DNA from: Balanoglossus misakiensis | Taxonomy: Eukaryota; Animalia; Hemichordata | Reading direction: 5' to 3' | NCBI GenBank assembly: GCA_040954595.2 | Contig: CM082585.2 | Span: 8,139,404 to 8,203,403 of the forward strand | DNA: 64,000 bases | Shown here: in pieces, positions 10,831 to 63,547 of the stretch | Position numbering within the stretch: the first letter of the stretch is position 1 | How the letters are laid out: each line of letters opens with the position of its first letter | The notes under the pieces: generated by a model | What the model was told of the DNA's origin: nothing | Seen by the model: the letters and a program-made list of their open reading frames with translations, nothing else | The model's database searches: none | Made by a program: the position numbers and the translations under genes

Positions 10831-10984
10831 TTCGAGAAATTTGAAAATTTCATTTAAAAAAAAAATCATGAAAATTTTCAAAAATTTACCTTTTTCCGAT
10901 TTTGCGAATTTGTCATTCTTTGCTGTTCTGTTCTCGGATGTCTGGCTCTCTACATCTAAACAGGCCAAATACTGGACGTTTAAA

Positions 10985-11814: not shown

Positions 11815-14800
11815 CTACTCCTCTTTATGGTCATTGAATTTTATGGGAAAAGCATTCGATTTTCGGAGACAGCATATCCAGATGATGATGCCAATAGACA
11901 GCACGGCGGCGATGGATACAGCAACAGCCGCAGCGACTATGAGAGCAAACTGTCGCTGATCTCTATTGGTTCGCGTTTGGATGTTAGGATCAGGAGTCTG
12001 GGGTTGCTGCCCGGTCACCGACGTGGGTGTTCCACTTGCGGTTGTACTGGGCAGGACTGGTGTTGATTGGTGGGTCACTGTTGCTGGCTTTGGGGTTGCA
12101 ATGCTGGCGGTTGTCTGTCCAGCAGCCTCTGTGGATGGTGTGGACTTCTGATCAGGGCTGGCGGTCGTCTGTGGTGCATCAACTGTGCGTGCAGTGGTCA
12201 GTTCCGGCCCGGTGCTAATTGTCTCAGTCTGCGTTACACCATCTGGAGTGGCGGCAGTCCGTTGCACGGTGGAAGCAGGTGAGTGATCAGGGAGGCGTGT
12301 GGTTGTAGGAGGGCTTCTTGAAAACACAGCGGTGGTTTGCGTCAGAGCTGTTTTGACAGAAACAGTCGACATATCTGTCGGTTCTGCGCTGGAGGGTGGG
12401 CTGGTTGTAGTGGCCGGCTCATCAATAAGGTGTATGACGACTCGGGTAGTGCCGTTCCTTCGGGGAACGCCAGCATCCACGGCCCAGATTTCCAGGAAAA
12501 TCGGCGAAAGCCCCAAATCGTCCACTGTGAGGTCCCTGCTGGCTAAAATGTCCCCGGTTGTACTGTTGATGACAAAAGGTGGCTCTGTCAAGTTGACGGC
12601 GTAAAGATAGTAGGTCAGTTCACCAGCGGCGCCAACATCGTCGTCTCGAGCCCGGAGTTCTAACACCACTGTGTCTTTGAGAGTGCCAACACCAACTGTG
12701 GGGTCATAGACAGGTTTTTCGAAGGTGGGTTCTTCTATGTTGGGAGGACCGTCGCTCACGTGTATAGTAAGCAGGGTGCTGCTGTACTTTGTGGGGACCC
12801 CAGCATCTGTAGCCATAACTTTAAGAGAGAAAGGTGATGAGTATATATCGTTGTAGTCAAGGTCTCTAGTTGTGGATATGTTTCCTGATGCCGCATCAAT
12901 TTCAAACGGCAGGTCGCTCGGTGGGTCAACAAACTGGTAGGATACTTCGCCAGCCTCATCCTGGTCTCCGTCTTCTGCTTGCAGGACAAATATCACAGCG
13001 TCTTTGGGAGTGTCGAAAGCCACGGGAGGCACAGAAATCGGTTCACTGAAGGTTGGCGGATTTTTATTGGCCGGGCCATCGGTGACGTATATCTTCAGTC
13101 GAGTTGTGCCGTTCTTCTGTGGAATGCCGTTGTCAGACGCAATCACCTCAACGACAAATGGTGAGGATAGGATATCTTCGTTCGTTAGATTTCTCGTGGT
13201 GGAAATGTTCCCGGAAGTCACGTCGATGGCAAACGGCAGCTCCGGACCAATCGGGCGGTGAAGATAGTAAGAAAGTTCTCCGGCACTGCCTTCGTCGTCG
13301 TCCTCAGCCTGTGCGACAAAAACGACTGTCCCAACAGGGGTTGTGTAATCCACTTCAGGTTCATAAACAGGATCTGCAAACCGTGGCTCATCCCAGTTCA
13401 CAGTGACGGAGATCTCCAACACCACCGAGGCGTTTCTCTGCGGAAAGCCGTCGTCGACAGCCCATATTTCCACGAAGAACGGCGACTGCCGCGTGTCATC
13501 GTAGGTGAGATTTCTGCCAACTGAGATATTGCCGGACGCTTGATCGATGACAAATGGTGTCTCTGTTCCATTGACACTCAAAAGGAAGTAGGACACTTCG
13601 CCAGCCACTCCCTCGTCTTCATCTACGGCACGAGCAACAAATATGACAGTGTCAACCGGGGTGTCGATGTCAACTGGAGGTACAATCAGTGGCTCTTCAA
13701 ACCTCGGGGTCTCTTTGTTCGGGGGACCGCTGCTGACGTAGATTTCGACCACTGTACTTCCGTTTCTCTGCGGAACGCCGCCGTCTACAGCCCACACTTC
13801 CAGAAGGAACGGCGACGCGATCACATCCGCAAGAGTGAACTGCCTGGACGGGGAGATGATTCCTGTTGCCGCGTCGATCACAAACGGGAAGTCCTCGCCA
13901 CTTGGGCCGCGTATGGAGTAGGTGAGATTACCAGCCACGCCAGAATCACCGTCGTTGGCTTGAGCAACAAAGACAACTGCGTCTGTTCCTTCGGTGACTT
14001 GAACGTCAACTTCATACAGACTTTCATCAAAGGTTGGGTTTTCCTTGTTCACTGGGCCATCGGTGACGTAGATGGTCAGTGCTGTCGTACTACTCTTCGG
14101 AGGTACCCCTGCATCAACTGCCACCAATTGGAACGTGAAAGGTGATGATACAATGTCGTCATATGTGAGGCTCCTATTAATGGATATGTTTCCAGATGCT
14201 GCATCAATCACAAAAGGTAGACTTTCTCCATTCACACTTTGGAGGATGTAAGATACCTGGCCCGCATCACCATCATCATCGTCTCGTGCATTTGCAACAA
14301 AAAAGATAGAATTTACAGGAGTGTCTACATCAACTAATGGCTCATACAGGGGTTTTTCAAACTTTGGTTCTTCCTTGTTGGCCGGGCCATCCGTAACGAA
14401 CACCTTCAGTGTTAGGGTACTGTTCTTCTGGGGAATGCCTCCATCTACAGCCACTATCTCCAGAAAAAATGGTGATGAGGTGATGTCATCATACGTGAGA
14501 TTCCTTGTCGTTGTGACGTTTCCTGACGTCTGGTCGACGGCAAAGGGCAAATCGTCGGTTGTGTCTGCAAGATAGTAGGTCACTGCGCCCGCAACACCCT
14601 CGTCCCGGTCATCTGCTCGAGCGACGTGAATGACAGTATTCACTGCAGTGTCCACATCAACTTCTGGCTCCGTCGCCGTGTCGGCAAAGGTCGGCCCTTC
14701 AGTGTTGGCGGGTCCCAGCCACAGCGTGTAGTTAACGAGGGCCGCCGTGGTTTCATTTGTGAAGTAGTCCACAATGTGGATTGACGATTTGTTGTCCGAG

Positions 14801-17800
14801 TGGCTGATCCACACATTATATCCATTGATGATTTCCTTGCCGTCTTCCCTGGCGACTAGTGCCACAGTAGTGTCGGCTAACGGTTCGGTGTCAAATGTCG
14901 TGTAGGTCCAACCAGTCTGCTGCTGCAGGTGTGCGGAAATTTCCACGGGCTGATAATCAGTCACCTCTCCATCTACGACATCAGATGCCGTTACGTCAAC
15001 AACAGTGACAGGATCTTTACTGCCAGTGTCAGAGTGGTAAAGGTAATCTGGATGTGATTCGTCGTCAGGAATGTCATTCACCAAGAGACCCAGGGTGTCG
15101 CTGTCACCGTCGCCCGTGTCAATCTTCACCACGTGTACCAGGTCATGCCTCTCAATTTGTTCGATCTGGGACACTTCCGGATCACCCATCAAGTCGTCAT
15201 TTTCGAACGTTGCCGTAAAGTTGAACAAGATCCCGGTTTCATTTGTGGACAGCCACCACAAAGCTGTCACAGCGCCCATGCTTTGTACATCGCCGAAGTT
15301 GACGGTCAGTGAGGGCACGGTGAGATTCTCTCCCAACATAGTAGACACTATCTCAAAGTCTAGCAACTGGTTGCTCTCCTCCTCGACGATTACAGGTAGC
15401 GATGACGATATCCTCAGGTTATAAGCGTCACCGTATCCGTCATTTTTCACCAAAACAGCCAAATTAAATGGCGTGTGTGGGGTGGCAGAGTCATCAGGGA
15501 AGACACTGTGTGCCAAGAAGAAATGTACATACAGCTTCGGAACATCTGTCACAGTCGTCACAGGCTTCTCTGTTGTTCGGTCAACTGGTGTACCTGGAGT
15601 TGACTCTGTTGATGAAACTTCTGGTATAACATCTGAAACAGTACGTGGTTTTGGCTTCGAAACATCTGTCACAGTCGTCACAGGGGTCACTGTATTTCTG
15701 TCAACTGGTGTACCTGGAGTTGACTCTGTTGATGAAACTTCTGGTATAACATCAGAAACAGTACGTGGTTTTGGCTTCGAAACATCTGTCACAGTCGTCA
15801 CAGGGGTCACTGTATTTCTGTCAACTGGTGTACCTGGAGTTGACTCTGTTGATGAAACTTCTGGTACAGTCGTCACAGGGGTCACTGTGGTTCTGTCAAC
15901 TGGTGTACCTGGAGTTGATTCTGTTGATGAAACTTCTGGTATAATATCAGACACAGTACGTGGTTTTGGTTGCGAAACATCTGGCACAGTCGTCACAGGG
16001 GTCACTGTAGTTCTGTCAACTGGTGTACCTGGAGTTGACTCTGTTGATGAAACTTCTGGTATAAAATCAGACACAGTACGTGGTTTTGGTTGCGAAACAT
16101 CTGGCACAGTCGTCACAGGGGTCACTGTAGTTCTGTCAACTGGTGTACCTGGAGTTGATTCTGTTGATGAAACTTCTGGTATAAAATCAGACACAGTACG
16201 TGGTTTTGGCTGCGAAACATCTGGCACAGTCGTCACAGGGGTCACTGTAGTTCTGTCAACTGGTGTACCTGGAGTTGACTCTGTTGATGAAACTTCTGGT
16301 ATAAAATCAGACACAGTACGTGGTTTTGGCTGCGAAACATCTGGCACAGTCGTCACAGGGGTCACTGTAGTTCTGTCAACTGGTGTACCTGGAGTTGACT
16401 CTGTTGATGAAACTTCTGGTATAACATCAGAAACAGTACGTGGTTTTGGCTTTGAAACATCTGTCACAGGCTTCTCTGTTGTTCGGTCAACTGGTGTACC
16501 TGGAGTTGACTCTGTTGATGAAACTTCTGGTATAACATCTGACACAGTACGTGGTTTTGGTTGCGAAACATCTGTCACAGTCGTCACAGGCTTCTCTGTT
16601 GTTCGGTCAACTGGTGTACCTGGAGTTGACTCTGTTGATGAAACTTCTGGTACAACATCTGACACAGTACGTGGTTTTGGCTTCGAAACATCTGTCACAG
16701 TCGTCACAGGGGTCACTGTTGTTCTGTCAACTGGTGTACCTGGAGTTGACTCTGTTGATGAAACTTCTGGTATAACATCTGACACAGTACGTGGTTTTGG
16801 TTGCGAAACATCTGTCACAGTCGTCACAGGCTTCTCTGTTGTTCGGTCAACTGGTGTACCTGGAGTTGACTCTGTTGATGAATCTTCTGGTATAACATCA
16901 GAAACAGTACGTGGTTTTGGTTGCGAAACATCTGTCACAGTCGTCACAGGGGTCACTGTTGTTCTGTCAACTGGTGTACCTGGAGTTGACTCTGTTGATG
17001 AAACTTCTGGTACAACTTCAGAAACAGTACGTGGTTTTGGCTTCGAAACATCTGTCACAGTCGTCACAGGCTTCTCTGTTGTTCGGTCAACTGGTGTACC
17101 TGGAGTTGACTCTGTTGATGAAACTTCTGGTATAAAATCAGAGACAGTTCGTGGTTTTGGCTTCGAAACATCTGTCACAGTCTTCACAGGGGTCACCGTT
17201 GTTCCGTCAACTGGTGTACCTGGAGTTGACTCTGTTGATGAAACTTCTGGTACAACATCAGAAACAGTACGTGGTTTTGGTTGCGAAACATCTGTCACAG
17301 TCGTCACAGGGGTCACTGTTGTTCTGTCAACTGGTGTACCTGGAGTTGACTCTGTTGATGAAACTTCTGGTACAACATCAGAAACAGTACGTGGTTTTGG
17401 TTGCGAAACATCTGTCAAAGTCGTCACAGGGGTCACTGTTGTTCTGTCAACTGGTGTACCTGGAGTTGACTCTGTTGATGAAACTTCTGGTATAACATCT
17501 GACACAGTACGTGGTTTTGGCTTCGAAACATCTGTCACAGTTGTCACAGGCATCACTGTTGTTCCGTCAACTGGTGTACCTGGAGTTAAACTTGCAGTCA
17601 AAACTTCTGTCGTTCTCGTTCCAGCTGTTGCACTTGTCACAGTCTCCATTGATGTTCCTACATCAGGAGTTTGTCTGCCAGATGACACAACAGATGTCAC
17701 GGATGTGCCTGCCAGAGTTGTTGCCAAAGTAGATGTATCTATTAATTTTGAAGTATCAGTAGTTGTAACAACAGGTGTCGATGTCGCTTCGGTATCCGTC

Positions 17801-19133
17801 AGCAAATACACAGTCAGCTGTGTGTATCCAACTTTCATTGGCATTCCCTCGTCAATCACCAAAATTACTGTGTTGTACGGAAAAATACTGATGTCATCAG
17901 CTGTGAGATTTCTCACAAGACTGACTTGGCCCGAGATGGCGTCCACATCAAAAACGGTGTCATTCAGTATTGTATAGTAGAATCTGCCAGGGTCACCTTC
18001 GTCTGCATCCGTTGCGTTTACTTCAACGATGACGGTGTCCTCTGGTGTTGACAAAGGAATCCCGACCTTATACATAGCAGCATAAAAGACAGGTTGATGC
18101 TTATTTTCAGGGCCAAACACCAACGTGTAATTCACATTCGATCCGAGAGTAGAAGGATCAAGGTAATCAAAGATGTGACAGGTGATAGTGCCATTCACTC
18201 CAGCAGTTGTCCATACATTGTAGTCTATCAACAGCCCGACATCTTCGTCCCGTGATGCGTATACCAGTGGGAAAGCACCATCATAGCCAGTATAGTTGAC
18301 CCTCGTGTACACCCACTCTGTTGACGTTACACTCGTCGACAATGTCACAACAGTGTAGCTGTTCATAGTGTAGGTACTTTCCTCGTCAATTTCTGAGTCG
18401 ATGGCCACCACTTCATGCGATTCGCCACTTCCTCTGTCGTAAACGCGATCAGGATGATCTTCTGCATCGCTGACGTCGTCGACGAGGAAGTCTGTTAGAC
18501 CGTCGTCTTCGGGATGCATTATCCGGACATGATGCACTAGGCTGTGGATTTGGGTCAGTCCAATGTCAGGTAGCTGCAAGTCTCCCAAGGGGTTTGTGTA
18601 CCTAAACACCGATGACACATTCGTAAATGTTCCGGTCACTGCCCCGACGAGTGACAGCACTTCCACTTTCGTTTCCAGCGGCACAAAATCCCCAAATGAC
18701 AACTGCAGCGACTGTGATTGAGAGCTGTCGTCCGTCTGCGCCTCCACAATTCGATATACTCCCACCATTCCATTGGAGTCAGTAATTTCAACTTGGGAAG
18801 ATATGACCGACAGGCCGTTAATGGTACTGTGGGCTCTGCTGGAGACCATGATAGCCAAGTAGATGGGTTCTTCAGGTGTGATCTCCTCGTAACGGAAGTA
18901 ATGAACGTGCAGGCCAGCCAGCTCTACCACCTTGATTGTGTCGGTAAGTATAGGCAGGGTTATCCGGGTGCCACCGGAATCAAAGGACAGAGTACCACCA
19001 ACAGCGTATACTGTGACATCAGACACAGCTGCTGAAGGGTCGGGGACTACCAGCCACTCAACAGTCCCAGTCAACCCCACATCCAGTTGTCCACTTCCAT
19101 CAATAGCCGTCAAGCCAGTCACATCGGCATCAT
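11815..19133 (-). CDS. 7.3-kb terminal exon: unnamed module copy 1, cadherin repeat, mucin array, module copy 2, 7 cadherin repeats, Thr/Ser stalk, TM helix, short tail
   Basis: Lies in the 2448-aa ORF. Acceptor tttgcag|ATGAT at 19134 gives the phase 1 needed. Cadherin-like motifs PxF..Y, A.DxD.G..G...Y, F.ID..SG.I and A.DGG.P. TM segment FALIVAAAVAVSIAAVLSIGIIIWICC. Confidence 0.93.
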
Positions 19134-22100
19134 CTGCAAAGATTGATTCATTATACATCAATGTGTGAGTCTATAATATTGAATTTCATTCATACACACT
19201 ACAAACACAGTTCACACAGTCTTGCGAAGAGCCAACAAATTGCCACACGCACACCACAGCTAACATTCAATAGGCTCTTACTGTTGGGAAAATATTGTAG
19301 AAATGAAAGCTCACCGATTGTGAAGTGCTGATTCATTGGTGTCTGATCGCCACCACCATTCAGATATAAGGACAGCGATACTTCAACGTTGGACAATTCT
19401 TGCAGCTGACCGTTTTCAAGGGTCACTCGGACAGTGAAGGCTTCCCTTGTGAACACCAGATCTTCCAGTACATTCAACTGAACTATGGCGCACGCAGTCT
19501 GAAATTGAAAGATGAAGAATATTTTCTTTACACTCAGGACTCAGTTGCTGGTAACAGGGTCGAAAGACTGGCCTTAGAATAATACTGTTCAACAACAATT
19601 CCACAAATCAATTGAAGATGTCCAGACCACTATGTATAAATTAACTATAAGTCCAGAAAAACAACATCAAACCACTTACCCTTTGTGTTTTCTCTTCCAT
19701 ATAATCTTGTACAGCAGTATTAAACTGATCAAATTGATTTAGACTTTGCCCCTGCCAAAAATGAATAATCATCATTAAAATATTTTGTTTAATAACAACA
19801 TTCAGTTCTTTTACACACAATGTTTGTTCAACGTTTAATTGATTCCTGAAGATTGACAATTTAAAATGCAAGGTCTAATTGCAACGGTGATAATTGAGTG
19901 CACTTTCAATATATCCAAGGAAATGAAAATTTGCTGAAACTTACCCCCACAGCAAATTCAAAATCCTTCTGGAACTGACCGCCTAGATTCATTACATTCG
20001 CGTAAGAAATGACATCCTGGCTTTCATCGTCCCTCTCAAACATTCCCAGATCCCACCAAAGGATGGTGTTGTTCCAGCGATGCAGAAAACCAGCCACGAT
20101 TTCTTCGCTGTCACTGGTGTCAGTCACAACAGCGCTGATGTTTTCAAATTCTTCATGTGATATATACTTCCCATCCATGCTGTTATCGCTGATGTAGTTC
20201 TTGAAGTAGCCATACCATGTCGTGTCGCCTGTACTTAATCTAGTGATAAAAATACTTAAATTACTTTTCCATAAGGTTTAATTTCAATATTATTTTGAGA
20301 CCTGGGAACACTGCACAAGATTTTAAAAGTAATTTCAAAAGTCTATCTGTAGATTAACAAAGTATACTGTGGTTGCCAAAACATAGAATAAGGAACTCAC
20401 ATTTGCTCTGATCCAAATATTTCCACCACCAGTGCTCGGTAGTTGAGAATGCTGATACTTCCATTGACCAGATTTTCAAAAAGAACAGTTTCCATGTCTC
20501 CTGTGGTTGACGGTAGATCAGTGTCTTGCAGACACCTGAAATTGTGACAGAAAAGATTTTGAGATGTCAAAAAAAATCAGACAAAATATGGAATCATGTT
20601 CAAGTTAATTGACTTAAAGACACAACCACTGGGAATACAAACTTTATGAATTGATTATTCTGTTACAAGCTGTTATTGTGAATTCTCTCTTGGCTGCAGA
20701 AAAACGCCAAACAGAACACTGCAGAGTATGGCCCAGTATACAGGTAATACTAGAACTGAGATTTTTTCCACACAGATGCCCAGCATTACACTGACCTGAA
20801 GACCTCCCAGTTCCAATCCTCTTGCTGGCCAACACAGGCCATGGTGACATCAATGGCATCAATCAACTCAATTCCACTGGCAGGAAAGTCAAAGACGCCC
20901 AGCGAACATACAGCGATACCATCCGGATAATCCGCCAGGCAATTGTCGACGTAGATCTCCGCGCTGTCGCATGTGACTGGGGTGACGGGGTTGAAGGTCA
21001 CAGGGACAAGGTAGCTGGGTTGTGGTGTTTCTTGTCCTGTTGTGTCCAGAGTGGGACTGGACAGGCAACTCAGATCGGCGTCAATGAAATGCACAGTTGT
21101 GGATACAGTCCTGGGTTGATCGCATTCGTAGCTGTACTCCAGCGTTGCCTGGTAACACGTCGTTGTTGCTTCAATTGGCACTGCCCTCCTACGAACCTCA
21201 ACAGATATCACTGTGATGCTTTCAGCGTCCAAGTCGCCAATGTTATTGCCAAGCTGTCAAGAGAAAAAATAAACATGATTCTGATTAGAAGTGTTTCCAA
21301 ATAAATGAAACAACATATCAGTAAGAATTAACCCTGTGTACACCTACTTAGCTAGGCCAACGGGATTACAAACAACCAAAAGAAAATATTCACCTTGACA
21401 AACTCAAGTGTTGGATGTTGCGTTGGTAGACGAAACACCAGATTCTCAGCGGCTACTAGACCGTGGTTTTGGACTGTAAAATCTATCCTGCTGTCTTCAA
21501 GAGATGATAAAACTACAATTGCTGGATCAATGGTCACCACTGGCATATAAACCTATAAAAAATAGAAAAAATGTGGTGGTAAGAATTTTTTTATTTTGTG
21601 AAAGAGCCATCTGGCATGGTAATAAAATTAATCAAACTAAAACAACATATTATCTATAAGTGATTGGTGTACACAAATATATAAACAACCTCTGCATGTA
21701 AATATAAACAAGTTAAATGATAAATGGGTGCCACACCCCTTTATTCAGCATTTAATTCAAACTGTCAAAACTTACCCCAGTTTCATACGACGTTGTCAGA
21801 GAAAATGTGTAGCCACCGCTGGAGGAAAGGGTCACGGTCAAGGTGTACTCCACCACGATTCTGTGTAGGAATACAGTCATAGCTCCGGAACCATGACTTA
21901 CGGAGATGACACTGGAGTATGTTGTGTGGTCACGTGCCGATACGTGGATGCTGTAGTACCCCTCAAGTAAGTCAGGAAAAGTAACGGTTCCTGAAAGAAA
22001 GCCCCACAATGGGAAATGTTATATTTTGCTTGATTCTTCAGCATTTATACAAAGGGGGAAAATGCTGTTGTCAAGATCTCCTTTTCAATGAGAATAAAGG

Positions 22101-25100
22101 GTGTGCAGACTTGCAAACTTCATGATACATGTACTTCAAAAATAAATTCAAACCTTGGAAACAAGATAATTCTCATGGCAAGAATGTCAGCAAATCCCCC
22201 AAAAGTGGTTCAATAACATTGCCACTGCTCGACTGAGCTTCAGATAGCCTTCAATTTGGAAAAAGCATCAGTTTTTTTTTTCTGAAATTTAGACTACTTT
22301 GCAGACCAACATATTCTCTATTCCTACATTCTCTATTCCTGATATGACAATGTTATTTAATTCTGTCTGACTTACCATATATACTAGTCTTATCATTAAA
22401 AATCTGCCCAGTCTGAGAGTTGACGAGTTTGACGTCAGCACTGTTCACACCGTAAGCGTCATCTTTGAAACACCAGAATTCATTTACGACTGACACAACA
22501 AAATCAAGTCTGTCCGAATCTGTGGTCGAGATGTTGTAGGGGATGGTCACATTGACAGACTCTGCAGAAGTGATTAAAATGGTGCCCTCAATAATCTCTT
22601 CTTGGGTTGCCACGGAGATGATCAGGTAAGCCAAATCTCCCGGTTCCAGAAGTGTGATGCCTGAACTGTCCGTTGCCAGCTCAAATGACGACACAGATAT
22701 GTCGGGGTCAGATACGACAGCGGTGATATCGGTTGCCATTGTCAGACCAATGTTCTTCACTGTGATCTGTTGGTTGAAAAGGTTGGAGTATTTTTCAAAT
22801 ATTTAATTCTCACAGTTCACTTCTTTATGAAGGTGAAAAAGTCAACATAAAAAGAGAAAAAGAAACAATAAATTGGGTAAGTGGCAAAGACAACCTCTGA
22901 CCTCAAAATCAGGATAGTTTGACAATTTGAAAAAGATATGCCCAGAAGAAAATTCAAAAGAATATGTCATGATAACGTGAATGACTTGAGTCAATATTCC
23001 TGGATAAATGATCAACTTACCTGAAATTTCTTCAGAACTCTTCTTCTGATTGTAGTCGTCAGATCAGACGGCGTGGCAACCAACACCGGCGGAACCGAAT
23101 TCAGCGTCACGGTGAAATACAGGGATGCTGATGTTCCTTCAGGTGTTGAAAAGACGACGATAAGTGTAGCGGTCACTGGACTGCTCGCTTGGACACCGAT
23201 GCAAATTGGCACCTGCTGACCGATCTCCAGAGTGTCGGCATAGAAACCGGAGCTTGAAGAATTGCACACGCTGACCGCAACCTCTTGTATTGCAGAGGGT
23301 ACTGTATTCTGAACCTAAAAACGAAAATGATAAACTTGAGAAATTATACACAAGTTACAGATCATATGTCTTGTTTACCGAAGCAAAATGGCAAAGCTGT
23401 GTACACACACTCATGGAAGCTGACAATGTACAACCTCTACGTTATGTTTCACCAGAAAATGGCTTTTGGCACAAGCTGCCAAGTAAATTTCCTGGGGTAC
23501 CCATCTTCATACTAATACGCACCCTATATGTTATGTTATCCAGTGCTACCGGTCCGTCGTTGATGAGAACAGCGACATTGTCGAAGACAGCATCATCTAG
23601 GGTCCTCTCGTGTGAAACGGACATTGGGCTGACCTGCATCCCTTGCACTGTCCATACCATCTGAGTGATGTACACATCGTCTGCAGGGTGTACTGCAGTC
23701 TGTCAACAGTGAAAAGATATGTTGCAGTTATGTCCCCAGCTTGACTTGAGAACTGGATACTCATTAATATTCATTCAGATCAATATTCACATCTGTTGCA
23801 AGTCACACCCATTCATCAATGTATCAACATTAGACCAGGGCCGATCGACCAGTCTGGGGAGAACCCCTACTCATCTGGATATGCAACGTACATGACCACT
23901 TTTGGAATAAGACCACCATACAGAGGTATACCCATACTCACCAAGTTAAATACCCCATACTCATCACTGGAAATGGGATAATACACAGCCTGGAAGAAAG
24001 TCACGTTGGCAGAATCTGTTTCGACTGTCCAGTAATAATCCGTGCCATCAATCGTCACTCTACAGTATAAGAATGAAACATGAGTTACATTTTTGATAAT
24101 AAATAAATTAATATGCAAACAGGCCAGGGTGCTCATTCTTTACATTCACTGATAAAATATTGGTCTTCAAATTGCAGATCTCACCGTTTTTGGACATATT
24201 CATTACCTTATTTGGACATCATCAGTTTCACTCATTACCATATTTGGAAATAAAAGTTGTATTCATTACCTCATTTGGGCATCATTAATTCCAGTCATAA
24301 CTTTATTTGGACAATAAAAAGTTTCGTCCATTACCTTATTTGGACATCCACAGTCTCGTTCATGACCGCATTGTCATCTATGAATGTCACATATCCAGAT
24401 ATTACAACAGGCTGCGCGTACGCCAACAGAGACGATGCTGAGATGTAGTCAATGGTGACGGTGTAGGACAACGGAACTGAGAGCGTCCACTGCTCAGTGT
24501 CAGAACCAATGGCATTGGTGCACTTGACAGTGACATCATACGGCTGTTTGCTTGCTACAGCTTTCCTCCACCTCAGTACGCCGGATCTCGGATCCAACTC
24601 CATGCCACTGGGACCAGACACTAAGGCACACTTGACCGGCAGACTTCCCTTAAATTTAAAGGGAGAAAATACTCTTTGACTTAAAAAAATATGTGACCAC
24701 GAAACTGGCGATCAAAAATTTGTCATCACGAACCTTTAATAGTGATGTGTCCTGATCAAAGCAATCATCTCATATCCTAGCACATGTTAATGGTTAACAA
24801 ATTTGTCATCAAAAGGGAAGAGCAATAAAAACCATCTTATACCAACCTCAATCAACTCAAGTTGAACTTCATACTGTCTTCCTTCGCTGATAACGCTGTC
24901 ATTTATTTTGGCGATGAGAGGCGCTTCCAGTTTACTGGAACAATCATCTCCATACCATGGTAAGAAACAGGAGCATTGTCCTTGAATGCACTCGCCTTGC
25001 TTGGGGTCGTTATTTCGACCACAGGCGTCATCTGCACATGGACTGTAAAATTCGAAGGTAACCTGAGAAGCCGCAAAGACAAAAAAACAGATTAGGGAAT

Positions 25101-28100
25101 TTTTAGGTGATTCAAGTAAATACACATTACAAAAGGCAAATTGATTCAAAACAGTGCAGAAATTAGAATAAGACATCTTACGACAAATTAAAGAAAACAA
25201 AAATACCGGAAAAAACTTTGATTAAAGTCATAGTCACTATTTGAGTAACACACTCTGAAATGCATTGCTAAACTTGACTAGAGTCAATGATAGGACTTAC
25301 CTCGCTTGATGTAAATTCACTTCCAGTTGAACTGACCTCAACGCTGATGATGCCTACAGTGTGTGGCGGTGATGTGCAGACCACCAATTCACTGGACACC
25401 CAGATACCGGTGGCAGACAGGTTGCCAAACTGGCAGGAGTAGCTGTCGTCGGACGAGTTCTCAAAGTTGTGCCCCCACACTTGTACCAGCTGTCCCCCCT
25501 CTTCCGGACCACGTGTTGGTACGATCCTCAGCACAGTCGGAATCGGAAGACATTCGGGACCGTAGAATGTATAAGCGCATGTATCGCACAGATCGCCATC
25601 CCAGTTGGTACCGTTGCATATACACTGACCTAAATGGGGAAAATTGATCAAGTAAATTTGACCACTGTTACCGTGAAAAATGACATGTAGCCAATCACAG
25701 ATTTTCAGTGGGTGGCAGGCGAAAAAAAATATGCCACCTCATGGTTATTAAAAGCTGTAGGCAGTGTGACTATATACATATTATGTAAATTTAGAGGTGA
25801 CCGTATACTAATAGTGTAAACTGTGGTTTGACATAAGGTTCCTATGTAATGGTGGTGCGAATGATAATACACAAAAGAAATTACCTGTTGTTAAATCACA
25901 GTCGCCATGGACACACAGAGGGCAAGGGTCACAGTTCACACCCCATCTTCCAGGTGAGCATTCTGAGCAGTTGTCTGACGTGAACCCAGTAAAGCAGTCA
26001 CAGACATCGGGTTGAATGCACGTGCCATGTCCACTACACTCGTTGACGCCGTAACACGTCGGCACGCTGCACATTGAGCCGCTCCAATCATCGTCGCACT
26101 GGCACTGGTCAGGTCCGACGCAGTCGCCGCTGCCCGAACAATTAGCGACGCCGAGGCAAGTGGGGATGGAGCAGTCCAACCCGCTCCACCCATCGTCGCA
26201 CTGGCACACATTCGGGCGGACGCAAGCGCCGTTACCGCTGCAGTTGGACAACAGAAAGCAGTTGAACGTATCATCCTCCAAGAAGGGTATATAATCAACA
26301 ACAGCCATCGACCCAAGATCTTCACGATCAAAGATACGCGCAGAAACATACGATTCAGAGTTACTTCCCCACCAGTTGTTCCTTGCGTACAGCGCCTTGT
26401 TGCTTTGGTAACCGACACTGAGCTCGTACAGTGCTGCAGGGTTCTCCAACAAATTGTACGTGACGTTGAACGCACCAGTTTTGGCGTAAACCACCGATCT
26501 CGTTGATCTGCTTTCTGAGAACGTGTTGTCCATGACGAAGCCGTCAATTGCCAGGTCGGGCTGGTCCGCCACAAGAACCAAACTTGACTCCCCGGTGTTG
26601 GCAGTGAACGTGTTTCCAACAACTGTGACCGCCATCTTCGCGTCCGTCACAGGACTGTTCACGATGTTGATTTCTACGTCACTGTCCGCATTGCCGGTGA
26701 ACGTACTCGCTGCAACCTCCACATCAACATAGTTGCCATCTATGCCAACATAGCACGAGATGCCTGCGTTCCCAGAAAACGAATTCTCGGTGATGCTGAC
26801 CGACGCGAACGGTGCCCTATCGTTTTTGACACTCACATCCAGTGCCCTGTCGGTCATGCCGACAAAGTCGTTTCCAGTAACCTCAATGTGGGAGCCATCC
26901 CCAGGATCTGACGTAGCTATGAAGACGCCCGAATCGCTTTGAAAATCACAATTCTTTAAAACCAGATTCCGTTGCATCCCTCTCTGCCCACGCTCCAGGT
27001 TGACGCTGAGAGACTGAGTCCCTCTGTTTCTTTCGAAGACGACCCCCTCGATGCTCAGTCTCCCGCTGTGGCTCCTGGATACGACCGACGCCCCGCCCTC
27101 TCCGTTATCCCTGATCACGGCATTCTTGATGTCCAACCACAGCGTCGCGTCCACATCAACCACCAAGCCGTACTGAGTATTCCCCTCGATGACCGTACCA
27201 CCAAGATCGAGAACGTAGTCGTCGAAGTTCGATCCGACCTCGATTCCAACTTGAGACATCCTGGAGACGACACAGTCCTGGATGGCCACGTGTGAATCAT
27301 CCACAGTGACACCTGTTCTCGCTCCAGTGATATTTGTGTGCATCAGAAGGCCGTGACGAAGATCAGTGGATACTGAAAGGATAGATATAAGCATTATAGA
27401 ACTTATGCACAGAGCTGATCGAGAAACGAAAGGTCAACTGGATACCATTATTACTTACTGATAAAGAATTTCTTGAGGAGTCAAGAACTCCACATGCTTT
27501 ATTTCTAGTCCTGGGACAAATTAGTCCATGATGGCAATGGTGATCCATAGCAACTGATGCCATGGCTAAATTTGGTATACCTTTAAACCTGAAAACTAAA
27601 GACATGTTAAATACCGGTAAATAAAAATAGACTATGTTACCTGCAGCTGCAGTAGTCACTGCCTCGAGTCTGACTTTGAATATACCACTGGATGAGTTTT
27701 CCGCTTTTTGAAACTGGAACCACATGGATGGCCCATCACTCAAGTGAGTGAGTGACACTTGGCTGCCAGATGCAACTTCTGCAATGGTATCTCCTTCTCC
27801 GTACTTGAAATAGTCACTCCGGTCCGTTGAAAACTCCTCAAAGGTCAACTTGATTCTGGCCCTAGGGTCAGTGTTGACCGTCCACATACAGTCCATCTCG
27901 TCTTCGGAGGGATATGCCGATGGGTAACCAGGAGATGTAATGTAGGCTGGGACATCTATTGGAAGGGTGAAATTCTCCCCACAGCTGGAATAGGTCATGG
28001 GATCTTCACGTACTGAAATGGACAAAAAAACTGTCCTGACAAAAATATTCTGTATACATGTACCAGTAAAACACTTCAGAGTCCTGGGTAGCTAGGGATT

Positions 28101-31100
28101 ACTTGCAGAAGTATTAGCAATGGAAACTACATGTATATATATATACTGTGCACTTTGCGTGTTTGTTTAATCTTTCGAAACATTCAAATTAAAATTCTAT
28201 TTGCGTAAACTTGCCAATCTTTCACAAGTTTGATGAATTGGTAGTGTGAAGATGACGTCTCCAAAGATAATTAATCAACAGCGCCCTCTTGTGATAGAAA
28301 GTAGCTCCAAATAGTAAGTTACACTGCCTTAGTACCATCTCCCACTAACCTGTAAACAGCTCTGATTGTTTGAACACAACACCTGCCCATGGATCACCAC
28401 TGTTGGCTACAAAGTGAACCATTTCTGTATCAATGCCTTGTGCTTCCAAAGTACCTGAGAGATAAAGAAAGAATAGTCATCAAGCAAACTTTGCAAACAC
28501 ACAAGAAAATAAAGTCAAATTATGTCAGTTTATCAAAGGATTGCAAATGTTTGTCTTATAAATTTACCACAAGAGTACAGGTACATTGCCCAAGTGAGAG
28601 GGACTTGTACTCTGAAATGTTGAAATACAGATATTTACCTTCAGAGAAAATTCCCCGGCCTTCTTCGAAAATCAAAGTCACTCCCTTTTCAATGACCAAA
28701 GATGCACTGGATCTGTTGGGAAACGTAAAACACCATTACAACAAACAGATAAAGTATTACAAAAATGTGTAAGTTTTTAGCATGGTATGTTACATGCATG
28801 GAACCGTGTTCAGTATAGCATGGCTGACCTGATGTGACAAGGAGGTGACAAATCTGCTAAGTCAGGCTGGCCTTGGGTTAGCTAGCTAGCCCAGAGCTGA
28901 ACATGTAGTTGGAAACATAGTTCTTGCATGGTGAAGCACAGATATAGATGAGATACTCACGTGATGAAGATTGATCTGGAGACATAGTAAGGACTGTCAT
29001 CCAATGTCAGTGTGACGTCACTTTGGAGGAGACCCCCTGCGTGACCGTCATGGAGGAATGGATCGAGGACTGGCTCTGCGACTTCCGCTGGCCGAGTCGA
29101 TGTCAAATACGGCAGGTAGTGCACGTAGCACTGGGCCATGTCTTTGTGGAAGGAACAGATTCTCTGGGTGATGTCGTTGTAGTTTGAAGTCCCCCAGTGA
29201 TTGTGAGTTGCGTTGACCGAGGAGTGGAGACTGAAAACGGGCACACGGAGTTCGCAGATGCTCTCCGGGTTGTACAAATAGTTGTAGTGGACCTCGGCTT
29301 CGTAGACGTCCAAGTCAACGGTGTACATCACGGTGTTGTTGGTGAAATCGTTGTCCGTGATGTGCAGGCCTTCACCTCTGACGGCTCGCGCATTCCCATC
29401 GACGTACACCACTCTAGTGGCGGTATTCCCGGTGAAATCGTTCCCGCTGACGAGAATATCGACGCTCTCCGTCTTCGTGTCGATTCTCAGAACCGCATCG
29501 TAGTCCCGCACGGCGTTGTCCAGATAGTTCTCGGAGAACGTGTTGCCGGTTATGGTCACGGGGCTGTCGTAGACGCTGTGGACGTACACCACGTTGGACG
29601 AGATCCCGGCGAAAGTGTTCTGCGAGATTTCCAGGACTACAGACTCCGCAGCGTGGACGTAAACGCCGTAACTTGCGCCATCACTGATGGAGTTCCCACT
29701 TAAAGTGTAGCGACTCCTTTTTCGAGCCGTGTCGAAAATGTAAACAGTGTCGCCCTCAGGAAACTCGTGACCTTTGAAAACACAATTTATGATATCAACA
29801 TCAATGGCATCATAGTCTTCAACTGGTCGGAACGACGAAAACCCATTTTGGATATTCGATTCCACATCAACAGTGTCCATCCTGAATCTGCCACTGCTCA
29901 GCTGAGTGTACAGTCCATAGTTTGAGAAAGTCACGGAAGAGTTCAGGATTTCAAACGATCCGTCGCCAAGAACATCCACAGCGCGATTATCAACATAGGA
30001 AATATGGCAGTCTACCACTTGGAATGATGTCAAACTTGGGCCGTCAAAGTTGACGTAGATTCCATCTCCACCAATGTTGGTCACCAGGCAACCATTTATA
30101 ACATTTTCATTGTCGTTGTGACCTAGGACCTCACTTCCTTGGATGGTAATTCCGTTGTTAACAGAGTAAGAAGATGATATCCCCTCTAATATAACATTGG
30201 AGCCCTCGACGACCAGACCATAAGTTGTGTGTGAGATTTCCACATATGAAACTACTGACTGTGTTTCTAATATGAACAAACATGAAAAAAATATATTAAT
30301 CGAGACATTTGAGCATAACCTTTAACATCTTCAAACATTTCCAGTTCTCATCATTCCTTCAAATATTTTGATTGCATGTACCTTTTTGTGATGGGAATGT
30401 ATTTTGCACTGAAAATGAAGTCACGAAGTGTTAGACACAATTATAAACACCTAAATGTACCTTGTGTGCTGGCGATGTGCAGCCCGCTCCACACCTGGCC
30501 ACCTGTGTATGCTGTCATGTTGATGGGATTATCAACACTACCGTTAGCAAAAAATAAACCTGTGGAAAAGACAGACAAAATAAATCAAAAATATAAACAA
30601 CACAGAATCACAGAAAAAAACCTACAAAACAAGTTTGTTTATGTAGCAACCAACACTAGCAATTCACTGGCTTAAATAAAATTCTGCTAAGATTTTGAAG
30701 GGAATTCCTCCAAAACAAGACTCACAGAGGGTTAGACTTTGATGCATTGATCAGGAGAGACTTACCGTCAACGTATAGTCTTAAATCTTCATTGAACATC
30801 AACTGAACTCCTGCTTCAACTGTCAACTGTCCACTCTCTTTGACGATAAGGCTTGCTATAACCTGATACGGACTCCCTCCAAGCGTCAGGGTTTCGCTCG
30901 TAGTAATCTCCCCGCCAATTTGATTTCCCACGCGGAAGAACGACGCATCTCCAAAAGCGATGTCGGTGAAGTTGCGGGATTTCAAATAAGGCGACACCAG
31001 CACAACAGGCAGGGATGAATCAAGGCTCTGGTCGTAGATCTTCGGTCGGATTTCGGTCAGCTTCGCCGTCCCCCACCAGTTGTACGTTGCGTTGACGACC

Positions 31101-34100
31101 TCCGAGGGGCTCCCCGCCGACACCCGGATGTTGTACTGGCTGTCGGGGTTCTCGAAGAAGTTGTAGTGGAACGCCAGACCGTCGCAGATCTCCTCAAGGT
31201 GCACCACCGTGTTTTCGTTTCCGGAGAGTACGTTGTTTTGGAATATGAAGGGCGCGGTGCTGGAGGGATTGGGTCTGAGAATGATATTGTCGGTACCGCT
31301 GTTCGACAGGAAATCGTTGTTGGTGATAGCAGTGCTTGTTTCGGCCGATGAGTCCATTCTGATGTTGAGTTGAGTGGAACCACACTGCTGGAAGGTGTTA
31401 CCATCAATGAGCAGTTCGTCAACATCATTGCGGATGTCAAAGTAACATGAGGGGCCCCTGGGAATGTTAAATTCATTGTTCGTGATCTGAACAGACTCGT
31501 AGTGCCGCACGTAACGCAGGTACACACCTTCGTACCAACCCGAATGACTGAATGTGTTATCAGCAATGATAAGCGAGGACTGAGCTGCAGCATGGTCCCA
31601 ACTGTTGCCTGTGACAAAGATGTTCCAATTGTAGTCATTGTCTGTGTACTCGCAGCCTATCACAGCAACGTGCCTGTACTCAGAGCTGTACGAAAAACCG
31701 TCGTAGTCCTCAAACGACACGTACGTTCCGATCTTCTTGTTTCTCATGAAGGAAGAATCTCTGACGTCTACCACTCCAGATTTGACATCGACACTGATGC
31801 CATGATCATTAGCGTCGAACAAAGACGAAACAACTGAAATCTGGGAGTTCATTTCTTCGAGGACCACACTGACACCAGTCCCGCCGTTATCCGCGATCAC
31901 TGCGTCCGCCATCTTGACAACGGCAGATCTTCGCGGACTGCCCTTGCGTTTCTCGGCTTCGATACTGATACCATATCCGGCGTTCCTTGACACCTCTGTC
32001 TCGCTCACGTGCATCTCTATGTCGGTGGTGTCTTTGTGAAACGTCACGGACACACCATCAGATTCGCAGCGAGTCACGACACAGCCGGAAATGTTGATGA
32101 CCGCATCACGGACTACCGTGACGACCAAACCGACAACAGAATCGGAAACCGCGACATTCTGGATGTCCAGTTTGTCTTGAACATTCTTCACATCTATGGC
32201 TGTCCTCGCAGTTGTGATGTCATAGCCAGCTAATGCAATTGCTGTCAAGCAAAGAAAAAAAATCACATCATGCTGAAGATATTAACTTCTAATTACTGCA
32301 TTGTAGATTTGGGGAAATGTCATAAAAAAATTACTCAATTTTTCTTGTAAACTCTTTTCCCCAGTATTTAAAATACTCCATATCTCTAACATCCCCATGT
32401 ATTGTACACTTACCATTGGGTGAGTTGACCACCATACCATACCACACCCCTTCTTCCTTGTTACTGAGAGTAATCTGTTCATTCATTGATCCAAGATTCA
32501 CCAGGTCACCTACAAACAACGATATGATACTTACATAAAATACAAAATACTCAATGTACTTTTATATGCCTACTGTATGGTAATAACCTACGGCATGTTA
32601 GAGTTAAAGTAAGCAATGTCAATATGAATAATTTTTTTGAGAAATTTAAAATGTAACACACAATAAGTAGCCTAAAATTATACCAGTTGAACATTCAATG
32701 CTGAAAGTTGTACAAGGTTATGCATAGTATCTCACTACACAGGAAAAAACATGATTACAAATATTTTAATTTGTCTTCAAAATTACTTGAATAGTGAATT
32801 GTACCTACCTTTCACATATATTCCCCTGTTTCTTAAAAATTTCATGACGACTCCAGGCTCAACCAAGAGCTTCTTACTAACAGGTATCATGATGGACCGA
32901 TCGACCAAGTAGACCTTGCCAGTGTTCTCCAACAGTAGACTCTCGCTCTGGACGTGACCTCCGATGATGCTGCCATCATGTTGGAAGAAGTCGGCCACGG
33001 TACTCTCGGTTTCGTTCGTCGCGACCGTGCGGGCTGCGTCGGCGAAAAACGGCAGGATGCGGGCCATGCCGGAATCCATGTTGCAGTAGAAGTCGCACAC
33101 CCGCGTATACAGATGCTGGTAGGTCTGACTTAATCCGTCCAGCTCCCCGTCCAGGTACGGCTTCCCCCAGAAGTTCAGACTCGCGTCGATGAATCTGTCC
33201 TCGGAGAACGGGGCGCTGACGTACAAGTCGTACGTGGACAGAGAATTGTTGAAGTTGTTCTGGGTGACCACGATGGAGTACGAATTGACATGGATGACCT
33301 GGGCGGCTTCGTTGCTTCTCAGAATGTTGTCGGAAAATTCTATGACCCCTTCATTGTCCGTCTCCAGGTTGATGATCCGGCCGCCTGGGTAGCTGTTATC
33401 CTCGAACCGATTTCCCGAGATGACAGCTTTGCTCGTCACACCCTGGGCTGGGAAATCTACCGACTGATACCGTTGGAGTCCTAACGCCCCGGTGCCTGAG
33501 CTGAACACGTTGCCTGTCAAGCGAACCTGCCCCGTGAGACGTTCCAAGAGGCAGGAATAGGACGTTATTTCCGTGTTGCTATGGAACGTGTTGGTTTCTA
33601 TGGTGATGTTGGTGTAGGCGTTTTCTGGATTGTCGGTGAAGACCTTCAGATCCTCTCGACTGTTGGCAGCGAATGTGTTTTCCTCGATGATTAAAGTGAA
33701 AACCATGGCCTTGTCTGGTTCGAGCAAATTGACGAAACATCCACGCATAGTGTTACTGGATATGTTGGAGTTGGTTATGTGTATTTCGTGGGTAGCAATG
33801 GCACCAGTAGTCTGATAAAGTATTCCGTCTTTTCCATTACCCACAACATCCAGACTGTCCACGGTGATATCGCCCAAATTTTTCGGCATCATGACAATCC
33901 CAGAATCCAGGTTGTGGGAGCAACTTCCTCCGGATATATTAACATTCAGATCGTCGCGCATTTCAACGCCATACAACCCATTGTATGAACTGGAGACACT
34001 TTCCAGCTTGAAACGAGACTGCCCTTCCGAACCGGACAGATAGATACCGCTGAGTCCGTTATGGATGGAAGCACTGTGCGAGATCACCGGGAGTTCAACT

Positions 34101-43418: not shown

Positions 43419-43614
43419 CTATCTCGTTGCGGAATCACGTGTTGGTCCTCCATCTGGTTGATATGTCGGATTGAAAAAGGACGTAAAATGTTGGTAGTGG
43501 CTTGCGGACATCTCGATGGCTTCTCGTCCATGTTTTGTGTTCTGTCTTCTCCTGTACATCTTGGAGAGTGGAGTCTTCTCGCTGATGGAGTTGTATTGTT
43601 TCAGAGATGCGTAT
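43419..43614 (-). CDS. Candidate alternative terminal exon of ATP11
   Basis: Acceptor ttacttag|A. GC-richer island in AT-rich surroundings. One frame gives YASL, YNSI and FFNPTY; another gives DTHL-stop. Confidence 0.5.
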
Positions 43615-43915
43615 CTAAGTAATTGTCTCTGTGGATTGAAAGAAACAATGCCCAATCACAAGATAGTTCAAATATGGGTAAAAATATAGGACAAGAGATA
43701 AGTTCAGGAAAACGGCTAATAAACAGCACCAACTTTTTAAAGACTAAAAACAATTCATCTAATTTAAGTTTTCATAAACAAGCCAAATAATCTGAATATT
43801 CTGACAAACTGGCTTTACCAGTATTTTTGTTTTAGATTCAATTACACAGGTGCACATTGTTTTGTAAATAACCATATTGCCAGTGTGTGCACAGATACAT
43901 AAAAGAGTAGTCCTG

Positions 43916-44111
43916 CCCAGACCCCCTTCCTGTACCATCTGATTCTATTATCCTATTTTCAGCTTTGAATTTTGTTCTTTATGATAACAAAATTTATAAA
44001 ATTCATTAATAAAATGTACAATAGCTTGGTGGAATTAACCGATACATAGATGTCTTTTTGAAATTAGTAATGTACAACTTTAGAATCAGATGGTACATAG
44101 AGAAGACTGGG
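43916..44111. mobile_element. Short element with a 17-bp perfect subterminal inverted repeat
   Basis: TGTACCATCTGATTCTA (43931-43947) and TAGAATCAGATGGTACA (44081-44097); outer CCCAG/CTGGG. Confidence 0.6.
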
Positions 44112-46370: not shown

Positions 46371-46476
46371 CTATGAGTTGTGCATGGGAGTGGGATATAA
46401 GTAGCCGACCCGATCTCTTTGTAAATGAAAGCACTAAGGGCTTAGAATATCGGCTGCCATGAGCCAGCTTCTGGTA
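46371..46476 (-). CDS. Candidate alternative ATP11 tail exon (YQKLAH..., phase 0 to 1)
   Basis: tttttacccatag|TACCAGAAGCTGGCTCAT...CTCATAG|gtaaac; open for 106 nt. Confidence 0.4.

Positions 46477-49626: not shown

Positions 49627-63547
<13,921 letters not shown>

What the first reader, a model, noticed from the sequence alone, without database searches (positions are those of the whole stretch)
18100..25062. Unnamed block resembling giant bacterial surface proteins, yet fully intron-split
Seen: motif series VEYTLTV..FSLTTSYETGVYMPVVTIDP, RWNNTILWWDLG, CAIVQLNVLEDLVFTREAFTVRVTLEN, IDGSG.L..G.VEWLVVP..AA...YAVGGTLSF, IHSLVH.V...DDGLTDFLVDD..D..PD. From memory, this order matches a long unannotated region in CARDB/Ig-rich proteins of cyanobacteria and PVC bacteria and in some uncharacterised marine invertebrate proteins. 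Inference: an undescribed domain family with patchy cross-kingdom spread, possibly an old horizontal transfer. The introns argue against contamination.
Basis: inference. Interest (0 to 1): 0.75.

Follow-up and report, generated by a model that had tools for sequence, protein, structure and literature searches.

The report
Bacteria–animal clamp-and-cargo surface module
This stretch is part of a real, spliced gene for a giant membrane protein, likely of an acorn worm, and it encodes an unnamed 1,250-residue module that animals from sponges to molluscs share with rare bacterial surface proteins; its two halves are predicted to clamp around a tip that bacteria swap between strains, which would make it a second teneurin-like borrowing from bacteria.

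Summary
Largely confirmed and extended. All five motif groups are real, in a ~6,150-aa type I membrane protein. The block has 13 introns, but its conserved last third lies in a 7.3-kb intron-free exon, so 'fully intron-split' is overstated. A second, partial copy sits at 14704-15540.

The block has no Pfam or NCBIfam family for its core, and 1,660 protein clusters match it. It is a fixed-order cassette, co-linear over ~1,250 aa in hemichordates, molluscs, crustaceans, sponges and 1-3% of sampled Verrucomicrobiota, Planctomycetota and cyanobacteria (C-half alone seen in brachiopod, annelid, lamprey).

Folding, co-evolution and a split-gene complex prediction agree that a hairpin before a central slot locks into the domain after it. 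In bacteria the slot is swappable: Microcystis proteins with 85-98% identical flanks carry helical or beta-strand inserts 23% alike, others a short one. Animals keep the helical type, mostly between convertase-type sites. This window's copy has lost the invariant DDP loop and the second site.

Eukaryotic copies form one clade older than the sponge-bilaterian split. Nesting inside a bacterial phylum is not shown, so bacteria-to-eukaryote transfer is likely but unproven. Function is inferred, not tested.

The parts
11815..37578 (-). Whole gene: at least 32 exons, ~6,150-aa type I membrane protein
   Evidence: 31 exons 37264-11815 give 6,135 aa without a stop; upstream signal exon read from sequence; co-linear with Saccoglossus XP_006822956
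37515..37578 (-). Start codon and signal-peptide-like exon (phase 1 donor)
   Evidence: read directly from sequence, judged by eye
35120..37264 (-). Discoidin-like (DDR DS-like) and F5/8 type C domains
   Evidence: PF21114 E 2.5e-14, PF00754 E 1.5e-7
25885..34971 (-). Repeated right-handed beta-helix blocks, one CUB domain (28012-27641), EGF repeats at the 3' end
   Evidence: PF13229 in two exons, PF00431, EGF families; repeats cross-match in Saccoglossus and Haliotis homologues
24847..25629 (-). EGF, IPT/TIG and EGF domains
   Evidence: PF01833 E 7e-15; EGF-type families
24448..24648 (-). He_PIG Ig-like domain, directly before the cassette in all eukaryotic copies scored
   Evidence: PF05345 E 3.6e-5; 100 of 100 eukaryotic copies against 5 of 59 GTDB loci
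21857..24441 (-). Cassette N1-N4: four Ig/prealbumin-like stalk domains (six exons)
   Evidence: segment profiles hit animals and bacteria in fixed order; N4 is transthyretin-like, VIA Z 10.9-12.6, rmsd 1.4-2.7, 79-83 residues
21544..21856 (-).
   Evidence: mapped from sponge model; co-evolution ladder; complex prediction; coordinates
21044..21543 (-). ASH/MSP/PapD-like beta-sandwich with a basic loop (first convertase-type site; only RRR here); boundaries approximate
   Evidence: VIA Z ~10 to MSP, VAP, ASH and PapD chaperones for sponge residues 160-277
20472..21043 (-). Slot cargo: linker plus Cys-rich, moderately hydrophobic helical segment; second convertase-type site absent in this copy
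   Evidence: (pLDDT 50-70 in the sponge model)
19695..20471 (-).
   Evidence: helices in model, pLDDT 79-93; profile hits
18919..19495 (-). C1: second half of the split beta-sandwich
   Evidence: single Ig domains align across model residues 131..686 with ~100-120 residues
18421..18918 (-). C2 beta-sandwich and acidic loop; most conserved part of the family, but the DDP loop is deleted here
18103..18390 (-). C3 beta-sandwich
17800..18096 (-). Cadherin domain
   Evidence: PF00028 E 3e-9
15534..17587 (-). Thr/Pro/Val-rich mucin-like array of 120-bp (40-aa) repeats
14704..15540 (-).
   Evidence: E 9e-23 to copy 1; 57% identical to Ptychodera XP_070539074
12430..14700 (-). Seven cadherin domains
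   Evidence: PF00028, 7 stretches
11815..11946 (-). Transmembrane helix, CC pair and short cytoplasmic tail, stop
   Evidence: hydropathy 2.7 over 19 residues; coordinates

Best explanation
The block is a fixed ~1,250-residue extracellular cassette shared by animals and scattered bacteria, predicted to fold back so that a hairpin before its central slot completes the beta-sandwich after it, and likely acquired once from bacteria by a eukaryote older than the sponge-bilaterian split. The clamp would hold the N-terminal and C-terminal parts together even when the chain is broken in the slot, and would present the slot's cargo at the tip. Bacteria exchange that cargo (shown by sequence) and sometimes encode the halves as two genes (shown); most animal copies put convertase-type sites on both sides of a helical, cysteine-rich cargo (motifs shown, cleavage inferred). 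In this gene the cassette links a discoidin/beta-helix/CUB head to a cadherin-mucin stalk and membrane anchor. Because this copy has lost the DDP loop and the second site, it most likely now serves as an uncut structural joint in a cell-surface adhesion or recognition receptor.
For: Co-linearity of ten segments in animals and bacteria. Core identity animal-side vs GTDB rows: mean 39.5%, max 50%. Split domain: AlphaFold long strands 134-162 and 558-586; single Ig domains align across 131..686; 8 of 46 top N-to-C co-evolving pairs lie on one antiparallel diagonal against 0.38 expected. Split-gene halves of L010: score 0.88, best of 3 controls 0.01, runs agree in at least 95% of contacts, partner pLDDT at least 68; the mark was reached by 51 of 78 solved and 2 of 108 mismatched pairs; the DDP and KGL motifs lie in that interface. 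Slot exchange: flanks 85-98%, slot 23% in two Microcystis aeruginosa proteins; 26 alpha/beta changes on a 202-row tree. Dibasic sites on both sides in 99 of 121 eukaryotic copies, 3 of 39 GTDB, 8 of 120 other bacterial-type rows. One eukaryotic clade.
Against: No binding, cleavage or expression was measured. The tree has no root; no named phylum is sister to the eukaryotes, and grouping them with the He_PIG-type bacteria has support 24. The nearest bacterial-type row, P0033, is unnamed and CARDB-type. Two probable non-animal eukaryotes (L134, P0072) make an older, possibly vertical eukaryotic history possible. The cargo helices are low-confidence in the model (pLDDT 50-70), and in animals the cargo is no more variable than the stalk domains (29% vs 26-30%). 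Halves of split genes tend to pass the complex test. Counts are not independent: many rows are sponge-clade or mussel paralogues, and loss of DDP and of site 2 in acorn worms is one event on the tree.
Confidence: 0.55

Rival explanations
1. The cassette delivers a membrane-active effector. The helical or beta-strand cargo would insert into membranes; animals would release or arm it by two convertase cuts for defence or signalling, and the window's copy is a disarmed form.
For: Swappable cargo within one species; rarity and breadth like bacterial teneurin-like toxins (PMC13018210 section 6); alpha cargo more hydrophobic than the Ig domains (median best 19-residue hydropathy 1.5-1.6 vs 1.1); sites on both sides.
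Against: Only 16-17% of alpha cargos reach a transmembrane-level score; the beta cargo's alternation score is about that of the Ig domains (2.29 vs 2.10); no toxin or enzyme family hit in 6 slots scanned; the cargo is internal, and of the 11 loci inspected only L036 has a candidate immunity-type ORF between the halves.
Confidence: 0.2
2. Same protein module, other history: it is old in eukaryotes (inherited, then widely lost), or it moved from eukaryotes into bacteria.
For: Eukaryotic rows are one clade attached outside named phyla; L134 has AT-rich introns and GC3 0.10 and branches outside animals; bacterial presence is only 1-3% of sampled genomes.
Against: Bacterial copies span 10 named phyla, with phylum-level clades such as cyanobacteria, and hold all the slot diversity (alpha 161, no-HEL 62, short 17) while 119 of 119 eukaryotic copies are alpha. 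Flanking parts (He_PIG, CARDB, prealbumin-like) are of bacterial surface-protein type.
Confidence: 0.2
3. A remote relative or analogue of the alpha-2-macroglobulin/C3 core: five Ig-like domains, a split sixth carrying a cleavable bait, then a seventh; it would act as a protease-triggered switch.
For: Same layout of a split domain with a processed insert (C3/A2M layout recalled, not from a call); C2 matches the same region of E. coli and Salmonella A2M, C3, CD109 and cobra venom factor at Z 6.8-8.0.
Against: No thioester motif in the window or in any row but one; those Z values are at background level for beta-sandwiches, and unrelated sandwiches score as high or higher.
Confidence: 0.07
4. 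Bacterial contamination or a mis-assembled, non-functional region.
For: Core motifs sit in an intron-free exon and this copy has lost invariant residues.
Against: 31 in-phase exons, animal domains on both sides, a spliced P4-ATPase next door, a 56% identical Ptychodera orthologue with the same losses, and an intron position shared with mollusc-clade rows.
Confidence: 0.01

Closest known systems
Teneurins and bacterial teneurin-like proteins (PMC13018210)
   Same: Invariant core with variable flanking adhesion domains, present in under 3% of species per phylum, polymorphic cargo in bacteria, kept in animals as a cell-surface receptor behind EGF repeats.
   Different: [quoted passage not shown]
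Alpha-2-macroglobulin / complement C3 core (layout recalled)
   Same: A split beta-sandwich whose insert carries a flexible linker, cysteine-linked helices and a basic processing site; weak structural matches of C2.
   Different: No thioester; no sequence link found; an ASH/PapD-like domain and a helical bundle lie inside the insert.
Notch heterodimerisation, SEA and GAIN domains (recalled)
   Same: A surface protein cut during maturation whose parts stay joined by strand complementation.
   Different: About ten times larger, carries a cargo, exists in bacteria; no sequence similarity seen in Pfam scans.
Bark beetle/Anakonda (SRCR plus parallel beta-helix, PMC8006247 table)
   Same: The N-terminal head has repeated beta-helix blocks; mollusc homologues also have SRCR.
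   Different: Concerns the head only; no SRCR hit in the window exons scanned; no direct sequence comparison was made.
CARDB / He_PIG / Calx-beta giant bacterial surface proteins
   Same: These are the bacterial hosts of the cassette.
   Different: Their named domains flank the cassette; the cassette core itself is unannotated.

Membership tests
Teneurin / bacterial TLP | FN-plug, NHL propeller and YD-repeat shell | tested here: not met
   No such Pfam family in 18 window exon pieces or 23 homologues; models show beta-sandwiches and a helical bundle
Teneurin / bacterial TLP | Invariant core, variable flanks, rare but wide bacterial spread | tested here: met
Polymorphic toxin systems | Cargo exchanged between close relatives | tested here: met
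   flanks 85-98%, slot 23%; five further alpha/beta pairs with slot 24-28%
Polymorphic toxin systems | C-terminal toxin domain of recognised activity | tested here: not met
   slot is internal in fused forms; no toxin family in 6 slots
Polymorphic toxin systems | Adjacent immunity gene | tested here: inconclusive
   11 loci inspected; one small ORF between the halves in L036, no Pfam hit
Alpha-2-macroglobulin / C3 | Thioester motif | tested here: not met
   absent from the window model and all rows but P0023
Alpha-2-macroglobulin / C3 | Split Ig-like domain with a processed insert | tested here: met
   predicted only:
Alpha-2-macroglobulin / C3 | Sequence or fold homology of macroglobulin domains | tested here: inconclusive
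   C2 Z 6.8-8.0 at background level; profile searches gave no A2M row
Bark beetle / Anakonda | Orthology of the SRCR plus beta-helix head | not tested
   beta-helix present; no Bark sequence compared
Horizontally acquired gene | Eukaryotic copies nested within a bacterial clade in a rooted tree | tested here: inconclusive
   one eukaryotic clade, no root, no supported bacterial sister phylum
Convertase-processed two-chain receptor | Cleavage at basic sites with chains retained | not testable with these tools
   motifs enriched in the family; second site absent in the window copy

The most novel reading that the evidence does not exclude
An undescribed class of bacterial polymorphic effector display, in which a strand-swapped clamp presents an exchangeable membrane-active or recognition cargo, was captured once by a pre-animal eukaryote. 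It gained convertase sites that release the cysteine-rich cargo and became a widespread invertebrate receptor family, from sponge surface proteins and an adhesion GPCR to cadherin-anchored giants: a second teneurin story with a different machine.
Probability: 0.3. Interest if true: 0.9.

Novelty: categorically new. Interest (0 to 1): 0.74.

Why it matters
Few large animal surface modules have a clear bacterial counterpart at 40-50% identity; teneurin is the textbook case. This cassette adds a second one with its own architecture, and it gives direct experiments: natural two-gene versions test the clamp, Microcystis strains that differ only in the cargo test what the cargo does, and animal copies with and without the basic sites test processing. 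It would also annotate a large set of 'uncharacterized' sponge, mollusc, crustacean and hemichordate proteins and of giant bacterial proteins. 'Categorically new' refers to the module: no family, structure or paper for it turned up in the searches named; its evolutionary pattern has a precedent.

Tried and rejected
No whole genome is held for the window. No RNA holder was listed for 18100-25700, so splicing rests on sequence and homology. PDB sequence search of the core gave nothing under E 0.3; the 62-sequence profile hit only prealbumin-like domains. Foldseek against PDB and viral models gave only generic beta-sandwich matches; the helical slot was barely tested by the fold searches, so no claim is made about its fold. 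ESM Atlas: top scores 0.79-0.85, unnamed or DUF11 clusters, and no usable hit for the slot. Viral contigs: no relative among 135 pattern matches. No metagenome relative of P0072 among 96 matches. The AU test of eukaryotes plus cyanobacteria did not finish; one co-evolution script timed out and was rerun smaller; its swap control also removes phylogenetic noise, so I rely on the diagonal only. No named plant, fungal, insect, nematode, cnidarian, echinoderm or jawed-vertebrate row appeared, but only the best 120-150 rows were listed and most are unnamed, so absence is not shown. Ten literature searches found no description of the module; supplements were not read, and Supplementary Note 10 of PMC4729200 could bear on novelty. 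Two look-ups of earlier scan findings were empty. A guessed exon at 27588-27459 was dropped because it broke the frame. An Asp-Pro autocleavage idea for the DDP loop was set aside: the loop sits in the predicted clamp interface.
Full report
OBSERVATION. The interval lies on the minus strand inside one large gene. Thirty-one GT-AG exons from 37264 to 11815 give 6,135 residues without a stop, and a signal-peptide-like exon lies at 37578-37515. Domain order: discoidin-like and F5/8C, beta-helix blocks, CUB, EGFs, TIG, EGF, He_PIG, the unnamed block, one cadherin, a 40-residue mucin-like array, a second partial block, seven cadherins, a transmembrane helix. The interval holds 13 introns (exon GC 48%, intron GC 34%), but the last ~345 codons are in the 7.3-kb terminal exon. 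The upstream gene is a spliced P4-ATPase. The nearest relatives are acorn-worm proteins (Ptychodera 56%, Saccoglossus 38%), so the window is likely from an enteropneust; this is inference.

RELATIVES. The intron-free core (342 aa) matches 1,660 of 1.84 billion cluster representatives at E up to 1e-3 and 1,078 at 1e-10 (150 listed). Named animal rows: Saccoglossus (three copies), Ptychodera, gastropods, bivalves, Lingula, Lamellibrachia, two shrimps, a lamprey fragment, and the sponges Halichondria and Dysidea. The best 80 were Verrucomicrobiota 40, Planctomycetota 9, Cyanobacteriota 9, Armatimonadota 5, Thermodesulfobacteriota 3, Methylomirabilota 2, Pseudomonadota 2, Acidobacteriota, Bacteroidota and Actinomycetota 1 each, and 7 unassigned; single MAG labels may be misbinned. 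They include cultured Calothrix, Nostoc, Roseibacillus and Aquisphaera. In even samples, leaving out the centre genome, 4, 2 and 4 of 150 Verrucomicrobiota, cyanobacterial and Planctomycetota genomes matched. Core identity between 30 eukaryote-clade rows and 80 GTDB rows averages 39.5% (max 50%); the window's copy is the divergent end at 30%. The core has no Pfam or NCBIfam family.

ANATOMY. Segment profiles show one order wherever the segments occur: N1-N5, a slot, HEL, C1-C3, set between very different flanks. AlphaFold gave pLDDT 88 for the window's core and 79 for a sponge-clade N4-C3 protein. N4 is transthyretin-like and residues 160-277 are ASH/MSP/PapD-like (Z 10-12.6). Single Ig domains align across residues 131..686 with only ~100-120 residues, so one domain is built from both sides of the slot. 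Co-evolution on 360 rows (245 effective) put 8 of 46 top N-to-C pairs on one antiparallel diagonal, against 0.38 expected (p 4e-9, 276 bands tried). Five loci (L005, L010, L036, L052, L077) encode the halves as separate ORFs broken in the slot, four with a signal-like start on the C-half, judged by eye; L055 is a sixth with a sequence gap. The L010 halves scored 0.88 against a best control of 0.01, with the same strand register and with the DDP and KGL motifs in the interface; runs agreed in at least 95% of contacts and partner pLDDT was at least 68. Split halves tend to pass such tests; no like solved complex was found.

THE SLOT. Bacterial-type rows carry a cysteine-rich helical insert plus HEL (161), an insert without HEL (62, of which 51 are one beta-strand-rich type) or a short one (17); 119 of 119 eukaryotic rows are helical. 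Two Microcystis aeruginosa proteins (P0332, P0098) are 85-98% identical in seven flanking segments and 23% in the slot, and two other Microcystis rows have a 79-residue slot. Alpha and beta types change 26 times on a 202-row tree (37-46 if shuffled). In eukaryotes dibasic sites bracket the cysteine-rich segment in 99 of 121 copies, against 3 of 39 GTDB and 8 of 120 other rows; a strict RxK/RR occurs at either site in 83 of 121 against 2 of 39 and 2 of 120 (background 0 of 635 windows). The eukaryotic set was assigned by names and tree placement, and rows are not independent. The window's copy and its Ptychodera orthologue lack the second site and the DDP loop, which is kept in 165 of 172 eukaryotic and 80 of 80 GTDB copies. 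Against an effector reading: only 16-17% of helical cargos reach transmembrane hydropathy, the beta type alternates no more than Ig strands, and no toxin family matched.

HISTORY. With a site-heterogeneous model, 22 eukaryote-side rows form one clade among 71 (SH-aLRT 95). On concatenated halves (62 rows; rows lacking the N-half, such as Lingula, lamprey and P0072, left out) 17 animal-clade rows have support 99; adding two unnamed intron-bearing eukaryotes (L154, L134) gives 88, and the unnamed bacterial-type P0033 comes next. Sponges group with shrimps (and lamprey) apart from the mollusc-hemichordate type, so the module likely predates the sponge-bilaterian split. He_PIG precedes N1 in 100 of 100 eukaryotic copies and in 5 of 59 GTDB loci (Phycisphaerae-type planctomycetes and an armatimonad), a hint at the donor, but the tree gives that grouping support 24. 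The tree is unrooted, so nesting is not shown. I favour bacteria-to-eukaryote because bacteria hold the phylum breadth and all the slot diversity. Introns look secondary: L083, in the animal clade, has N1-C2 in one 2,262-codon frame, and an unnamed call equals residues 42-2377 of the Halichondria protein at 99.96% without gaps (single-exon reading inferred). The intron at 19133 appears shared with molluscs: 9 of 9 unnamed mollusc-clade calls with upstream sequence (of 18 shown) lose homology at that codon.

MECHANISM. Shown: order, distribution, slot exchange, split genes, basic motifs. Predicted: the strand-swapped clamp. Inferred: cleavage, retention of the chains, display of the cargo, transfer from bacteria, and an adhesion or recognition role for this copy. 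Copy 2 looks like the remnant of a second full module, since a Ptychodera protein 57% identical to it has the whole cassette and Saccoglossus has three.

KNOWN SYSTEMS AND PRINT. The pattern parallels bacterial teneurin-like proteins (PMC13018210: abstract and section 6 read), but the shell and C-terminal toxin are absent. PMC4729200 (passages) lists hemichordate transfer candidates under criteria that exclude genes with good protostome hits; supplements not read. PMC11817969 (two passages) notes a Mytilus chilensis gene annotated by the Saccoglossus protein as 39-fold up-regulated, labelled only by its coagulation-factor domain. PMC3482391 (passages; first 300,000 characters) has no 'CARDB', 'Calx' or 'Microcystis'. 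PMC8006247 (passages) gave the Bark domain list. Other papers were seen as listings only. A2M/C3, Notch, SEA and GAIN layouts are recalled. Ten searches found no description of the module.

VERDICT. A real, unnamed, cross-domain module with a testable two-chain clamp and a swappable cargo; this copy is a diverged member. Interest 0.74.

Noticed in passing
window 69-10850: 88-bp tandem satellite, about 123 copies at 99% match, just downstream of the gene.
   Followed up: no
window about 43400-60600, minus strand: Spliced P4-type phospholipid flippase gene upstream on the same strand (PF16212, PF13246); extent approximate.
   Followed up: partly
window 37359-37303: Possible extra 57-bp phase-1 exon followed by a 38-bp intron after the signal exon; frame is kept with or without it.
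   Followed up: no
P0311 (Dysidea avara): The whole cassette sits at the N-terminus of an adhesion GPCR with Calx-beta, Ig, GAIN and 7tm_2 domains; could be a fused gene model.
   Followed up: partly
L036:4800-7454: Split locus whose N-half ends in a ~590-aa slot with Ig-like and unassigned parts, followed by a ~240-aa ORF before the C-half: a possible effector-immunity pair.
   Followed up: partly
L134:2-5824: Cassette in an unnamed eukaryote with AT-rich introns, GC3 0.10 and a poly-Asn run, branching outside animals; probably a protist.
   Followed up: partly
L154:1-9046 (and L150-L156): Unnamed eukaryote with short introns carrying EGF-TIG-EGF-He_PIG units plus the cassette with both basic sites; long branch.
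   Followed up: partly
P0072: Unnamed membrane protein with slot, basic site, C1-C2, a Ser/Pro/Thr stalk and a transmembrane helix; deep, unresolved branch among eukaryotic rows; origin unknown.
   Followed up: partly
P0002, P0136: Versions with only HEL and C1-C3 detected, behind a C10 peptidase (with T9SS tail) or a lipase-type domain: the enzyme may take the place of the N-half.
   Followed up: no
P0297, P0084 and about 80 unnamed ~2,200-aa proteins: A second animal subfamily (sponges, shrimps) with a different N-terminus and bacterial Ig-like hits, strongly expanded in the sponge clade.
   Followed up: partly
P0037 (Lampetra fluviatilis): C-half fragment fused to a B-box; the only vertebrate row, possibly a faulty gene model.
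   Followed up: no
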